From: an uncultured Gammaproteobacteria bacterium
GTDB taxonomy: Bacteria > Patescibacteriota > Microgenomatia > UBA8517
NCBI GenBank assembly: GCA_964635715.1
Contig: CAZWNZ010000002.1
Coordinates: 10,100 to 74,099 of the forward strand
Direction: 5' to 3'
Length of the DNA: 64,000 nucleotides
Shown here: piece after piece, positions 2,109-50,796 of the stretch
Layout of the letters: each line of letters begins with the position of its first letter
Position numbering within the stretch: the stretch's first letter is position 1
Translations under genes and position numbers: made by a program
Notes under the pieces: generated by a model
Told to the model about the DNA's origin: nothing
Database searches by the model: none
The model's input: only the letters and a program-made list of their open reading frames with translations

Positions 2109-2888
2109 ATGATAGTGTTTGTGCTTTTTATTCTCGGGATTTGTTTTGGTTCTTTTGTTTCTGCGATGACTTGGAGAATTCCAAGGAATATTTCATTTGC
2201 AAAAGGTAGAAGTATTTGTCCGAACTGCAAACATAAGATATCTTGGTATGACAACATTCCATTGCTCTCATACTTGATTCTTAAAGGCAAATGCAGATAT
2301 TGCCATGGAAAGATTTCCCTCCGCTACCCTGCTATCGAACTTACTGCCGCAATCGGTTTTGTCACCATTTTTCTCTTCACCTTTAAAGGTCCGACCCTAC
2401 AAGGTGTATATAGTATTTTTACTCTAGTTACATTACTTTGCTATTTGACTGTTTTTGTAATCTTACTGTCTATTTTTGTTATTGATTTGGAAAATCAAAT
2501 AATCCCCGATTCCCTTGTTTTTTTCGGAATATTAATTGTCCTATCTTGTTTATTAATTACCAATCCTCACTCATTAATCATAAATCTGTTTTCCGGTCTT
2601 GTTGCTGCATCATTTTTGATGTTGATTCATTTGGCAACCCGCGGCCGTGGAATGGGTCTTGGAGACGTAAAATTTGCGTTACTTGGAGGCATGATTGTTG
2701 GTTCAAAATTACTGCCAATATGGCTTCTCTTATCTTTCTTGACAGGTGCGATATCAGGCTGCATACTGATTTTAGTTGGCCGGGCAAAATTGAAAACAAA
2801 AATAGCCTTTGGTCCGTTTTTGGTCGTTAGTGTAGCTCTGTCAATTATTTTTGGAGAGAAAATACTTAACCTCTTATTTTTAGTCTAA
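2109..2888 (+). CDS. pilD: Prepilin peptidase / N-methyltransferase (A24 family)
   Basis: Polytopic membrane protein. N-terminal CPNC...CRYC tetracysteine zinc motif and conserved Asp-containing loops typical of PilD. Confidence 0.85.
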   Translation: MIVFVLFILGICFGSFVSAMTWRIPRNISFAKGRSICPNCKHKISWYDNIPLLSYLILKGKCRYCHGKISLRYPAIELTAAIGFVTIFLFTFKGPTLQGVYSIFTLVTLLCYLTVFVILLSIFVIDLENQIIPDSLVFFGILIVLSCLLITNPHSLIINLFSGLVAASFLMLIHLATRGRGMGLGDVKFALLGGMIVGSKLLPIWLLLSFLTGAISGCILILVGRAKLKTKIAFGPFLVVSVALSIIFGEKILNLLFLV

Positions 2889-38957: not shown

Positions 38958-39114
38958 CGAATAATCGTGAGCGATGAGAAAAGCTTTGCTTATCTCATCG
39001 CGTCGAAATGGATTTCGCTTTTAAGTTTATCGCATTAGCTTAAACTTTTCCGCTCCATCATTTCTCCTCTCAAAATTACAAAAGTAATTTTGTAATAAAC
39101 ACAATAAAAACTTG

Positions 39115-39188
39115 TGGATCCAGTAGGGTTCGAACCTACGACCTTACGGATGTAAACCGTACGCTCTAACCAACTGAGCTATGGATCC
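39115..39188 (-). tRNA. tRNA-Val (anticodon TAC)
   Basis: GGATCCA-TA-GCTC-AGTTGGTTA-GAGC-G-TACGG-TTTACAT-CCGTA-AGGTC-GTAGG-TTCGAAC-CCTAC-TGGATCC-A. Confidence 0.85.
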
Positions 39189-39195
39189 ATGTGTG

Positions 39196-39276
39196 TGCGC
39201 GGGACAGGAGTTGAACCTGCATGAGAAACCTCACACGCTCCTTAGGCGTGCGCGTATACCATTCCGCCACCCGCGC
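39196..39276 (-). tRNA. tRNA-Leu (hand-folded anticodon AAG, unusual A34)
   Basis: GCGCGGG-TG-GCG-GAATGGTATA-CGC-G-CACGC-CTAAGGA-GCGTG, a long variable arm TGAGGTTTCTCAT, then GCAGG-TTCAACT-CCTGT-CCCGCGC-A. Positions 34-36 read AAG. Confidence 0.65.
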
Positions 39277-39286
39277 CTGTAACTTG

Positions 39287-39370
39287 TGCCGGGGGCGGGA
39301 GTTGAACCCGCACGCTCTTGCGAGCACACGCTCCTGAAGCGTGCCTGTCTGCCAATTCCAGCACTCCGGC
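39287..39370 (-). tRNA. tRNA-Leu (anticodon CAG)
   Basis: GCCGGAG-TG-CTG-GAATTGGCAGA-CAG-G-CACGC-TTCAGGA-GCGTG, long variable arm, then GCGGG-TTCAACT-CCCGC-CCCCGGC-A. One A6:C67 acceptor mismatch. Confidence 0.7.
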
Positions 39371-39429
39371 AATTATATCAAATTTATGACCTTAGACTGC
39401 AACGATTCGACCAAGGATATGATTTCTTG

Positions 39430-39501
39430 TGACCTTGGGAAGAATCGAACTTCCATCTCATCCTTAGAAGGGATTTGCTCTATCCGTTGAGCTACAAGGC
39501 C
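39430..39501 (-). tRNA. tRNA-Arg (anticodon TCT)
   Basis: GGCCTTG-TA-GCTC-AACGGATA-GAGC-A-AATCC-CTTCTAA-GGATG-AGAT-GGAAG-TTCGATT-CTTCC-CAAGGTC-A. Confidence 0.75.
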
Positions 39502-49363: not shown

Positions 49364-50107
49364 ATGACATACAAATCCGATGAAATAAAAAAAGTTGTAG
49401 AAGAAGGTTATGCAAATATCGCTTCTTCTTCCGGTTGCTGCGGTGGCTGTGCCTGTGGCTCAAACAGATATGCACAAAAACAATCTGGACAATTTGGTTA
49501 TTCAGATAAAGAGATGGATGAAGTTCCTGCCGGTTCAAACTTGGGTCTTGGTTGTGGCAATCCTACAGCCATAGCTTCCCTGAAACTTGGTCAAACTGTT
49601 CTAGATTTAGGTTCCGGCGCCGGTTTTGATGCCTTTTTAGCTGCTAATCAGGTAGGTAAAACTGGAAAAGTCATTGGTGTAGACATGACAGATGAGATGC
49701 TTAAACTAGCTAGTGAAAACGCAATCAAAAATAATTATAAAAATGTAGAATTCAGAAAAGGTGACATAGAAAAACTACCTGTTGATGACAATTCGATAGA
49801 CGTAATAATTTCTAACTGTGTAATTAACCTGGCCCCTAACAAACTCAAAGTTTTTAAAGAAGCTTACCGTGTTTTAAAAAACGGTGGTAAATTAATGGTT
49901 TCTGATGTTGTTTTGGCCAAAAACTTACCGGAAAATATAAAGAACGATAAGGAATTACTTGTTGGGTGTATCAGTGGAGCGATCCTTAAACAGGATTATT
50001 TGAATTTATTAAACAAAGTTGGATTTAATGACATTACAATTCTTAAGGAAGTTCCTGCGTTTTTAAAAGATTATGGTCTCAGCATAACTTATTCTGCGAC
50101 TAAATAG
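49364..50107 (+). CDS. arsM: SAM-dependent methyltransferase, arsenite methyltransferase (ArsM)-like
   Basis: N-terminal Cys-rich [13 protein letters not shown], then class I MTase motifs [11 protein letters not shown] and [10 protein letters not shown]. 247 aa. Confidence 0.65.
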
Positions 50108-50212
50108 CATTAATTACTTCCACCCGACTTTTACCCGCAGGGCTTAGGTTTCTTTTTGCTCTCTTTTTAATCCAACCGGCCGGCATATATTTATGTTATT
50201 TATTATTTATTA

Positions 50213-50270
50213 CTTGCAGGGTCGGACCCTGCAAGGTGTATATAGTATATATAGTGTATTAGTATTTTTG
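50213..50270 (+). repeat. Palindrome plus AT-rich/T-run element that shares ~29 nt with the pilD coding sequence
   Basis: CTTGCAGGGTCGGACCCTGCAAG palindrome (50213-50235), then gtgtatatagtat...tagtattttt. 50220-50248 matches pilD 2388-2416 (ggtcCgaccctAcaaggtgtatatagtat) at 27/29 positions. Confidence 0.5.
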
Positions 50271-50279
50271 GGGTATTGG

Positions 50280-50333
50280 GGTGGTCGACGCGAGTCGAAC
50301 GCGCAAACCCCCCGCCCTGGCGGGGTGCTCTAA
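50280..50333 (-). other. 3' half of a split tRNA-like element (variable, T-arm, acceptor 3' strand, C73), preceded by a palindromic direct repeat
   Basis: Minus strand TTAGAGCACCCCGCCAGGGCGGGG-GGTTT-GCGCG-TTCGACT-CGCGT-CGACCAC-C. The acceptor 3' strand is perfectly complementary to the 5' half at 50684-50725. Confidence 0.55.
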
Positions 50334-50575
50334 CTTAGACCTAATAATTTTTTGAAAGCGTTTCCTCCTTTATATGATTTAATCAGATATTCTCTTTTAG
50401 AGGCTAATTGTCTAGATTCAAACTCTTCCGAATAAATCAGTTTATATGGTCCTTTGTTTCTTGTAGAGATATTCTTACCATGGTTATGTTCAATTAATCT
50501 ACGTTGTATGTCTGAAGTTGACCCAATATAATATCTACCATTTTTAATACTCTGAAGAATATATACATAAAACAT
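50330..50575 (-). CDS. Small GIY-YIG nuclease-superfamily protein (YhbQ/UPF0213-like)
   Basis: MFYVYILQSIKNGRYYIGSTSDIQRRLIEHNHGK...KGPYKLIYSEEFESRQLASKREYLIKSYKGGN shows GIY...YIG, R, E and N core residues. The ORF-track N-terminal extension is a translation of tRNA-His. Confidence 0.7.
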   Translation of the reverse strand: MFYVYILQSIKNGRYYIGSTSDIQRRLIEHNHGKNISTRNKGPYKLIYSEEFESRQLASKREYLIKSYKGGNAFKKLLGLS

Positions 50576-50585
50576 ATTTGGTGTG

Positions 50586-50659
50586 GGTGGGTGAGCGGAT
50601 TCGAACCGCCAACCTCCTGCTCCACAGGCAGGCGCTCTAACCATTGAGCTACACCCACC
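50586..50659 (-). tRNA. tRNA-His (anticodon GTG) with encoded G-1
   Basis: G-GTGGGTG-TA-GCTC-AATGGTTA-GAGC-G-CCTGC-CTGTGGA-GCAGG-AGGTT-GGCGG-TTCGAAT-CCGCT-CACCCAC-C. G-1:C73 is His-specific. Confidence 0.85.
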
Positions 50660-50683
50660 AAATAAGTATTACGAAGCAACCAC

Positions 50684-50725
50684 CCCGCCATGGCGGGGTG
50701 CTCTAACCATTGAGCTACGACCACC
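50684..50725 (-). other. 5' half of a split tRNA-like element (G-1, acceptor 5' strand, D-arm) ending in the palindromic direct repeat
   Basis: Minus strand G-GTGGTCG-TA-GCTC-AATGGTTA-GAGC-A-CCCCGCCATGGCGGGG. The D-arm is nearly identical to that of tRNA-His. No T-arm follows. Confidence 0.55.
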
Positions 50726-50796
50726 AAGTCAACATGAGTATTTTATCATTTTTGCTTCAAAATGGCTAAGCTTGATTATTACACGCCGAATTCCAA

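What the first reader, a model, noticed from the sequence alone, without database searches (positions are those of the whole stretch)
2388..2420. A ~29-nt stretch of the pilD coding sequence is nearly identical to an intergenic palindrome/T-run element 48 kb away
pilD 2388-2416 (ggtccgaccctacaaggtgtatatagtat, encoding KGPTLQGVYSI) matches 50220-50248 (ggtcggaccctgcaaggtgtatatagtat) at 27/29 positions. Both are followed by a T-run; the intergenic copy carries a 17-nt internal duplication. In the intergenic copy the word is part of a perfect palindrome, CTTGCAGGGTCGGACCCTGCAAG. A chance 27/29 match in 64 kb is very unlikely. Possible readings: a small mobile or recombination element inserted in-frame into pilD; or a trans-acting antisense RNA, if the intergenic copy is transcribed from the minus strand with the downstream tRNA/GIY-YIG unit, which would then pair with pilD mRNA.
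Basis: seen in the sequence. Interest (0 to 1): 0.55.

Follow-up and report, generated by a model that had tools for sequence, protein, structure and literature searches.

The report
Transposase-linked hairpin repeat embedded in pilD
The 29-base match is real: both sites are copies of a small hairpin-plus-tail DNA repeat that, in related uncultured (Woesebacteria-type) bacteria, flanks a domesticated-looking IS200-type transposase gene and also sits in frame inside essential genes such as pilD and radA.

Summary
Observation confirmed. 2388-2416 and 50220-50248 match at 27/29, the only such pair in the window and absent from simulated windows.

The match is part of a ~38-nt element: an imperfect 27-nt hairpin (ACCTTTAARGG-N4-ACCYTRCAAGGT) plus a tail (GTGTATATAGTAT). 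The pilD copy spans 2379-2416 and the intergenic copy 50211-50248.

A metagenome scan found the same element outside pilD in 7 of 10 loci. In four genomes it lies just 5' of the start, inside the coding sequence, and (tail-bearing in three of the four) just 3' of the stop of a Y1_Tnp (IS200-like, RAYT-like) gene. It is also in frame in many Woesebacteria RadA genes.

In PilD it encodes TFKGPTLQGVYSI. The hairpin-coded part is the lowest-confidence helix-connecting loop. It is a clean 27-nt indel between close homologs, and its codons are far more conserved than elsewhere in the gene (0.88 vs 0.52, p=0.002).

In one genome the pilD, radA and three transposase-linked copies share the loop GGAACAACC. 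Copies in the other transposase-carrying genomes have different loops, which suggests concerted evolution.

Best reading: a REP/RAYT-like repeat family tolerated in coding sequence, a new variant of a known kind. The antisense-RNA idea has no support. No transposase gene lies in this window.

The parts
2109..2888 (+). pilD (prepilin peptidase, 259 aa), the host gene of copy 1
   Evidence: ORF; PF06750+PF01478 and 3523 homologs; AlphaFold model pLDDT 87
2379..2405 (+). Copy 1, hairpin part: ACCTTTAAAGGTCCGACCCTACAAGGT. Imperfect palindrome, encodes T91-G99 (TFKGPTLQG) of PilD.
   Evidence: nhmmer E 7.7e-7 against the family profile; ssDNA fold -5.4 kcal/mol, z -2.3; residues 93-100 are the loop between helices 72-92 and 101-129, and 95-98 is the only segment with pLDDT<50; 27-nt indel L104 vs L105
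2404..2416 (+). Copy 1, tail GTGTATATAGTAT (codons of G-V-Y-S-I), followed by the T run 2416-2420
   Evidence: Identical tail in the intergenic copy, in 6 of the 7 non-pilD metagenome hits (GTGAATATAGTAT in L096) and 3' of the transposase genes; codons GGT/TAT/AGT/ATT (nearly) invariant in 8 pilD genes
50211..50237 (+). Copy 2, hairpin part: TACTTGCAGGGTCGGACCCTGCAAGGT. Contains the perfect 23-nt palindrome 50213-50235. The centre is flipped (CGG) relative to copy 1 (CCG).
   Evidence: ssDNA fold -12 kcal/mol, z -5.8
50236..50248 (+). Copy 2, tail GTGTATATAGTAT
50254..50265 (+). Imperfect tandem duplicate of the tail (GTGTATTAGTAT), followed by the T run ending at 50269
   Evidence: read from sequence
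49364..50107 (+). SAM-dependent methyltransferase gene. Its stop is 104 nt upstream of copy 2, and it converges on the minus-strand tRNA/GIY-YIG unit.
50278..50340 (-). 3' part of a split tRNA-His-like gene. Its 3' end lies about 30 nt from the tail of copy 2. Context only.

Best explanation
Both sites are copies of one ~38-nt repeat family of Woesebacteria/Microgenomates-type CPR bacteria. The element is an imperfect 27-nt hairpin (ACCTTTAARGG-N4-ACCYTRCAAGGT) plus a conserved 13-nt tail (GTGTATATAGTAT). It is the cognate repeat of a clade of IS200-like Y1 (HUH) tyrosine transposase genes that resemble REP-associated transposases (RAYTs). In four genomes that gene carries one copy directly 5' of its start codon (the arm supplies the AAAGGT ribosome-binding-like sequence), one copy inside its own coding sequence, and one copy directly 3' of its stop; that last copy carries the tail in three of the four (L096, L097, L106) and also in the partial locus L102, but not in L103. 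Other tail-bearing copies lie at gene ends or in frame inside genes. Each arm is a self-complementary 12-mer, so the element reads T-[FL]-[KQ]-G-x-T-[FL]-[KQ]-G in one frame on either strand, usually without a stop codon. It can therefore persist inside coding sequence. In pilD it encodes TFKGPTLQGVYSI; the hairpin-coded part forms a loop between two predicted helices (hydrophobic stretches I take to be transmembrane), just before the helix that carries the first conserved Asp. The intergenic copy lies between convergent transcription units. Shown: the family, its link to the transposase gene, the in-frame copies in PilD, RadA and the transposase, the frozen synonymous sites, and loops shared within a genome. 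Inferred by analogy with REP/RAYT and IS200/IS605: the transposase recognises the folded hairpin plus tail on single-stranded DNA and cuts and rejoins there, which disperses copies and/or homogenises them (a gene-conversion-like effect). Also inferred: the pilD copy is an old, tolerated passenger kept uniform by that process rather than a part PilD needs.
For: (1) Metagenome scan with ACCYTRCAAGGTGNNTATAGTAT gave 10 loci. Three are pilD. The other 7 lie outside pilD and all share the extended motif ACCTTTAARGG-N4-ACCYTRCAAGGT plus the tail, canonical in 6 and GTGAATATAGTAT in L096. (2) L096, L097, L103 and L106 each have a Y1_Tnp gene (PF01797, E 3e-11 and 2e-12 for the two tested) with three copies: 5' of the start, internal, and 3' of the stop. 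L102 has the same tail-bearing 3' copy. The only NCBIfam hit is the REP-associated tyrosine transposase model. (3) 104 of the 120 best homologs of that transposase contain the internal LQGxxFKG. More distant homologs have other palindromes next to them, the same one on both sides in L032 and L033. (4) pilD: 41 of 120 homologs carry the motif, and the inter-helix segment is 38-48 aa in most motif-bearing homologs against 27-35 aa in most without. L104 vs L105 shows a clean 27-nt indel. (5) Codon identity at invariant residues in 8 pilD genes is 0.88 in the motif vs 0.52 elsewhere, Mann-Whitney p=0.002. (6) Genome A: the pilD copy (L081/L082) and the three transposase copies (L103) lie on one contig. 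Together with the radA copy (L109/L110, same two samples, same GC) they all have the loop GGAACAACC. L097 copies have GGACTGACC and L096 copies have GGGTCCGACC or AGGTCCGACC. (7) RadA carries the element at one fixed position in many Woesebacteria. (8) In the PilD model the hairpin-coded residues form the lowest-confidence loop. (9) The element has open frames on both strands.
Against: No Y1 transposase homolog lies in the 64-kb window (tblastn), and the rest of this genome could not be reached. Copy density is low: 2 in 64 kb, and outside pilD none in about 1.4 Mb of loci from other species. That is far below classical REPs. Base-pair covariation in the hairpin is not significant (covariation score reached by 52 of 500 shuffles; only pair 9-19 switches A-T/G-C). 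A double-stranded reading as two adjacent 12-bp palindromes therefore cannot be excluded. The copies in PilD, RadA and the transposase sit at fixed positions across deep divergence, and in RadA the net length change is only +3 aa against a solved RadA. Simple repeated insertion therefore does not explain them. The assignment of the radA contig to genome A rests only on sample and GC. The metagenome scan required the tail, so how general the tail is among solo copies is biased by ascertainment.
Confidence: 0.72

Rival explanations
1. The element is a double-stranded regulatory site. Two adjacent 12-bp palindromes (ACCTTTAAAGGT, ACCYTGCAAGGT) would be bound by a dimeric regulator, next to a -10-like TATAGT. 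It would mark a regulon that includes pilD and downstream pilins, radA and the transposase gene. The transposase link would then be co-regulation, not mobility.
For: Each arm is itself a perfect or near-perfect 12-bp palindrome. Hairpin covariation is weak. The tail contains TATAGT. pilD and radA are both genes used in DNA uptake and recombination (established knowledge). The copies keep fixed positions over long divergence.
Against: No sigma-70-like promoter is called at either window copy. The copies lie inside genes, right after stop codons and in both orientations, not in a consistent position upstream of genes. G9 always co-occurs with C19, which fits the long hairpin and not the two short palindromes. 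Loops that vary between genomes but are uniform within one fit repeat turnover better than an operator. Y1 transposases are known to bind folded single-stranded hairpins (PMC3479197, PMC6006769).
Confidence: 0.12
2. The segment is simply a conserved PilD peptide loop under protein-level selection. The intergenic match would be a decayed fragment of a pilD-like gene.
For: In frame, the intergenic copy reads YYLQGRTLQGVYSIYSVL, which resembles PilD homologs.
Against: Similarity stops abruptly at the element borders on both sides. The same DNA lies after stop codons, 5' of unrelated genes, in RadA and around the transposase genes. Synonymous sites are frozen. Many PilD homologs lack the segment, and it is the least confident part of the model.
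Confidence: 0.03
3. One reading: the intergenic copy is transcribed from the minus strand with the tRNA/GIY-YIG unit and acts as an antisense RNA on pilD mRNA.
For: 27/29 complementarity would exist if the minus strand is transcribed through 50248-50220. The copy lies just downstream of a minus-strand tRNA-like 3' end.
Against: The pairing follows automatically from two copies of one repeat. In other genomes the copies sit in unrelated places, so no conserved pilD-specific partner exists. There is no Rfam match and no promoter-like site.
Confidence: 0.03
4. Chance similarity of two AT-rich stretches.
For: Many windows were scanned and a rare match will sometimes occur.
Against: 0 of 100 shuffles and 0 of 40 simulated windows give such a match. 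Independent copies turn up in other genomes.
Confidence: 0.01

Closest known systems
REP sequences with their REP-associated tyrosine transposase (RAYT; 'REPtron'), as in Escherichia and Pseudomonas
   Same: A Y1/HUH transposase homolog flanked by short imperfect palindromes. A conserved tag lies on the 5' side of the hairpin when read in the sense of the transposase gene. The transposase gene has the same glycosyltransferase neighbour in three genomes at about 70% protein identity, which points to vertical inheritance. Solo copies lie at gene ends. The repeat sequence changes with the transposase lineage. Background: PMC5581495, PMC3479197.
   Different: Low copy density. The tag is an 11-13-nt ATACTATATAC(AC), not GTAG or CGTC. 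No REP doublets (REPINs) were seen. Copies lie inside coding sequences, including the transposase's own gene, at positions conserved over deep divergence. The protein scores 40-45 bits against the NCBIfam RAYT model, whose cut-off is 80, and it carries about 70 extra C-terminal residues.
IS200/IS605-family insertion sequences and their small hairpin derivatives
   Same: PF01797 transposase with similar subterminal hairpins at both ends in the same orientation. The hairpin upstream of the start codon overlaps the ribosome-binding sequence, as is known for IS200 (my knowledge). No terminal inverted repeats.
   Different: Conserved gene neighbours argue against a freely hopping insertion sequence. 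No identical multi-copy elements were seen. Solo units are only about 38 nt long.
Rickettsia palindromic elements (RPEs)
   Same: Palindromic repeats that sit in frame within essential protein-coding genes as well as between genes. They are shared at the same gene positions by related species and lie in tolerant surface or loop regions (background: PMC10969869, PMC1779305).
   Different: RPEs are about 100-150 bp, unrelated in sequence, have no known dedicated transposase, and decay with time. Here the unit is 27-38 nt, is linked to a Y1 transposase, and is kept uniform at synonymous sites.

Membership tests
REP/RAYT system | A Y1 (HUH) tyrosine transposase homolog is associated with the repeat | tested here: met
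   PF01797 hits. Repeat copies lie 5' of, inside and 3' of the gene in L096, L097, L103 and L106. None in the window itself.
REP/RAYT system | The protein passes the curated RAYT model | tested here: not met
   NF047646 is the only hit, but at 40-45 bits against a cut-off of 80.
REP/RAYT system | The transposase gene is single-copy and vertically inherited | tested here: inconclusive
   L096 and L097 share both neighbours (short-chain dehydrogenase and glycosyltransferase genes), and L106 shares the glycosyltransferase, at about 70-72% identity. Copy number per genome could not be counted.
REP/RAYT system | The flanking repeat is highly over-represented in extragenic space (tens to hundreds per genome) | tested here: not met
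   2 copies in 64 kb. One to three copies per 6-20-kb locus in the genomes that carry it, and none in other lineages' loci. Several copies are intragenic. Whole genomes were not available.
REP/RAYT system | A conserved GTAG or CGTC tetranucleotide at the foot of the hairpin | tested here: not met
   The tag here is ATACTATATAC(AC).
REP/RAYT system | The transposase binds and cleaves the single-stranded hairpin | not testable with these tools
   Needs biochemistry.
IS200/IS605 insertion sequence | Subterminal hairpins at both ends of a tnpA gene, without inverted terminal repeats | tested here: met
IS200/IS605 insertion sequence | Several near-identical full copies per genome, at variable locations | tested here: inconclusive
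   Conserved neighbours argue against it. No whole genomes available.
Rickettsia palindromic elements | Sequence membership in the RPE families (about 100-150 bp, Rickettsia) | tested here: not met
   27-38 nt, different sequence, CPR host. Only the in-frame behaviour is shared.
Intrinsic terminator | G+C-rich stem directly followed by a T run | tested here: not met
   No terminator-like site is called at either copy. The T run starts 13 nt (pilD copy) or 30 nt (intergenic copy) after the stem.
Known RNA families (Rfam) | Match to a curated covariance model | tested here: not met
   Only tRNAs pass the gathering thresholds. Nothing meaningful at 50050-50750 with E up to 10.

The most novel reading that the evidence does not exclude
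A domesticated Y1 transposase in Woesebacteria actively keeps identical hairpins inside essential genes (pilD, radA and its own gene) by a single-strand cut-and-rejoin or gene-conversion process. These intragenic hairpins are functional handles, for example coupling the DNA-uptake pilus, RadA-driven recombination and the HUH enzyme, rather than passive passengers.
Probability: 0.15. Interest if true: 0.8.

Novelty: new variant of a known kind. Interest (0 to 1): 0.6.

Why it matters
REP/RAYT systems are regarded as extragenic and have been described mainly in Proteobacteria. I found no report for CPR/Patescibacteria in the searchable literature. Here a related hairpin-transposase pair appears in tiny CPR genomes. 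Its hairpins are written into the reading frames of housekeeping genes at positions conserved over deep divergence, yet they are kept uniform at the nucleotide level within a genome. If confirmed, this gives a tractable case of selfish or domesticated DNA shaping protein sequence. It also gives a natural test of whether Y1 transposases homogenise their repeats. Finally, it is a practical warning: peptides of the type TFKGxTLQG in CPR proteins reflect a DNA element, not protein function.

Tried and rejected
1. Prophage or island bounded by the two direct repeats: rejected. The DNA right of the pilD copy is the native pilin operon, syntenic with other genomes.
2. pilD pseudogene fragment at 50.2 kb: similarity ends at the element borders.
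3. Exact-pattern scan of GTDB species representatives: 0 hits. The viral-contig scan with the tail pattern gave 0 hits. The palindrome-only pattern gave 4 hits in an unrelated 52%-GC phage sequence, which I take as coincidence.
4. Promoter, terminator and Rfam scans at both copies: nothing.
5. Attempts to reach the rest of the source genome failed: PilD is 'not on record', and the cluster look-up gave no accession.
6. Hairpin covariation test: not significant.
7. NJ tree of 111 PilD homologs with the loop masked: at least 20 presence/absence changes. The tree is too poorly resolved to separate gains from losses, so I do not rely on it.
8. Group I intron or homing explanation for the nearby GIY-YIG/tRNA arrangement: no Rfam support.

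Full report
**Observation.** The two stretches are as described. 2388-2416 (inside pilD, 2109-2888, +) and 50220-50248 (intergenic) match at 27 of 29 bases on the same strand. The degenerate 29-mer occurs twice in the window and never in 100 dinucleotide shuffles. An all-against-all search shows this is the only pair of 29-mers with two or fewer mismatches in the window, on either strand, and 40 second-order Markov simulations gave none. The 23-nt perfect palindrome (50213-50235), the T runs and an imperfect tandem duplication of the tail in the intergenic copy are all present. The match is really longer on the left. The pilD copy begins at 2379 with ACCTTTAAAGGT, a degenerate version of the left arm of the palindrome.

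**What the pilD segment is at protein level.** The window PilD has 3523 homologs. Those named by their sources, and the best matches among species representatives, are Woesebacteria/Microgenomates-type CPR bacteria. In an alignment of 35 homologs, the segment T-[FL]-[KQ]-G-x-x-L-Q-G-V-Y-S-[IV] is present in many sequences and replaced by a gap in others. Among 120 homologs, 41 have a recognisable motif. The stretch between the two flanking helices is 38-48 aa in most motif-bearing homologs and 27-35 aa in most of those without it. Two close homologs differ by a clean 27-nt indel: L104 has ...CTT|GGT GCT TAC AGT..., and L105 has ...CTT|TCT ACC TTT AAA GGA TCA ACC TTT CAA|GGT GTA TAT AGT.... In an AlphaFold model (pLDDT 87), residues 93-100 form the loop between helices 72-92 and 101-129, and 95-98 is the only segment below pLDDT 50.

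**It is a DNA element, not only a peptide.** In eight pilD genes, I compared codons at residues that are invariant. Codon identity is 0.88 within the motif and 0.52 elsewhere (Mann-Whitney p=0.002). For example ACC, CAA, GGT, AGT and ATT are identical in all eight, whereas flanking invariant residues use two to five codons. In L083 the pilD DNA is the perfect palindrome ACCTTGCAGGGTCCGACCCTGCAAGGT.

A scan of JGI metagenome contigs with ACCYTRCAAGGTGNNTATAGTAT returned ten loci. Only three are pilD. The other seven share the full motif ACCTTTAARGG-N4-ACCYTRCAAGGT plus the tail GTGTATATAGTAT (GTGAATATAGTAT in L096), and they lie in other contexts:
- directly after or overlapping the stop codon of an upstream gene (L093, L096, L097, L098);
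- just 5' of a gene on the other strand, where the arm supplies AAAGGTG six bases before the ATG (L095);
- in frame inside RadA (L094);
- twice in L102, once just 3' of a partial transposase gene and once about 700 nt away.

The window pilD copy (ACCTTTAAAGGTCCGACCCTACAAGGTGTATATAGTAT) is a canonical member. The intergenic copy is a variant whose left arm has been made perfectly complementary.

**Link to a Y1 transposase.** In L096 and L097 the element flanks a 227-aa ORF that matches Pfam Y1_Tnp (IS200-like; E 3e-11 and 2e-12). Its only NCBIfam hit is the REP-associated tyrosine transposase model, below the cut-off (40-45 vs 80 bits). Each gene has three copies:
- one ending 10-11 nt before the ATG;
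- one inside the coding sequence, encoding LQGxxFKG;
- one with the tail directly after the stop.

Two further genes of the family, fetched through the protein rather than through the motif, show the same three positions (L103; L106). The 3' copy carries the tail in L106 but not in L103. L102 shows the tail-bearing 3' copy. 104 of the 120 best homologs contain the internal LQGxxFKG. More distant homologs in other Microgenomates have different palindromes next to them, the same one on both sides in L032 and L033. L096 and L097 share both neighbouring genes, and L106 shares the glycosyltransferase neighbour, at about 70-72% protein identity. This looks like a vertically inherited gene rather than a hopping insertion sequence. 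No homolog lies in the window, and the rest of the source genome could not be reached.

**Other host genes and concerted evolution.** RadA of many Woesebacteria carries the element at one fixed position, as (D/N)-T-I-x-T-[FL]-[KQ]-G-x-x-[LF]-[KQ]-G. That is 19 of 120 by a strict pattern, with many degenerate forms and two sequences with an enlarged segment holding extra motif-like repeats. Against a solved S. pneumoniae RadA the net change is only +3 aa.

In one genome, pilD (L081/L082) and the transposase gene (L103) lie on the same contig. The pilD copy and all three transposase-linked copies there have the loop GGAACAACC. A radA contig from the same two samples, with the same GC content, also has GGAACAACC. 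Its assignment to that genome is an inference. The three L097 copies share GGACTGACC, the L096 copies have GGGTCCGACC or AGGTCCGACC, and the window copies have GGTCCGACC and GGTCGGACC. Uniform loops within a genome and different loops between the transposase-carrying genomes are the signature of concerted evolution. (The pilD genes L001 and L101, from other genomes, also read GGAACAACC, so the loop is not unique to that genome.) Relative to the tail, the loop is flipped between the radA and pilD copies and between the two window copies.

**Why it survives in genes.** Each arm is a self-complementary 12-mer. The element therefore reads T-[FL]-[KQ]-G-x-T-[FL]-[KQ]-G in the matching frame on both strands, and in all but one of ten strand/copy translations tested that frame has no stop codon.

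**Structure.** As single-stranded DNA the intergenic copy folds at -12 kcal/mol (z -5.8) and the pilD copy at -5.4 kcal/mol (z -2.3). In 20 distinct copies, 77% of cells pair in the long hairpin, against 18-62% when the partners are slid. Covariation is not significant, however, and only pair 9-19 switches between A-T and G-C. Most copies keep a 2x2 internal mismatch. A double-stranded reading as two adjacent 12-bp palindromes cannot be excluded on these data. The hairpin is preferred because Y1 transposases bind folded single strands (PMC3479197, PMC6006769).

**Mechanism (inferred).** By analogy with REP/RAYT and IS200/IS605, the transposase would recognise hairpin plus tail on single-stranded DNA and cut and rejoin there, dispersing or homogenising the copies. 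The copy upstream of its own start codon could occlude the ribosome-binding sequence, as in IS200 (my knowledge). The pilD copy is most simply an old passenger in a permissive loop. The intergenic copy lies between a methyltransferase gene (+) and a tRNA/GIY-YIG unit (-), a typical REP location. Neither copy matches a sigma-70-type promoter or a canonical terminator, and Rfam has nothing there.

**Comparison and novelty.** The closest known systems are REP/RAYT, IS200/IS605 ends, and, for the in-frame behaviour, Rickettsia palindromic elements (PMC5581495, PMC10969869). This element differs from REPs in several ways:
- low copy number;
- a long tag instead of GTAG;
- no doublets seen;
- intragenic copies at conserved positions, including one in the transposase gene itself.

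It differs from RPEs in size, in having a linked transposase, and in nucleotide-level uniformity. Full-text searches found no description of such a system in CPR bacteria. I rate it a new variant of a known kind.

**Verdict.** The 'small element in frame' reading is supported, and the antisense-RNA reading is not. The main gaps are the unseen transposase gene of this particular genome, the lack of whole-genome copy counts, and the absence of biochemical evidence.

Noticed in passing
window 2739-2767 (+), inside the 3' part of pilD: TTGACA-17 nt-CATACT promoter-like site (10 of 12 matches). The codons TTC TTG ACA, and ATA and ATT a few residues on, are identical in all 8 pilD genes compared. 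This may be a conserved internal promoter for the pilin-like genes that start at 2893.
   Followed up: partly
window 50278-50727 (-): A tRNA-His-like gene (encoded G-1, acceptor GTGGTCG/CGACCAC, discriminator C, CCA) is split into a 5' part (50727-50680) and a 3' part (50340-50278). Between them lie an intact tRNA-His(GTG) (50585-50658) and an 81-aa GIY-YIG ORF (50330-50575). Both parts end or begin with a ~25-nt direct repeat GTTAGAGCACCCCGCCAKGGCGGGG. Joined in silico, the halves give a cloverleaf with a 6-nt anticodon loop. Standard ARAGORN and Rfam runs do not call it.
   Followed up: partly
window 50167-50185: CCAACCGGCCGG, about 30 nt upstream of the intergenic copy, resembles the hairpin CCAACCGGGCCGGTTGG that flanks a distant homolog of the Y1 transposase in L033. 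It may be a remnant of a second repeat type or a chance match.
   Followed up: no
L085 2259-3038 (closest PilD homolog found, 73% identity): Here the element is rearranged and enlarged (TFKGPYVQGQTLYVVYSI; ACC TTT AAA GGC CCA TAC GTA CAA GGT CAG ACC TTG TAC GTT GTA TAT AGT). The copy is therefore decaying or duplicating in the nearest relative.
   Followed up: no
RadA homologs P0258 and P0298: The RadA segment is enlarged to 50 and 59 aa with extra motif-like repeats (for example TFKGSSFKG...LQGISLKG), which suggests repeated insertion or duplication at the same site.
   Followed up: no
L103 8892-10684: In the genome of pilD L081, the Y1 transposase gene lies next to pilM, about 6.5 kb from the nearest gene of the pilin operon (further from pilD itself). 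In L096, L097 and L106 it lies next to glycosyltransferase genes.
   Followed up: no
window 27145-50658: 15 tRNA genes lie within about 24 kb, including a run of four at 39114-39501.
   Followed up: no
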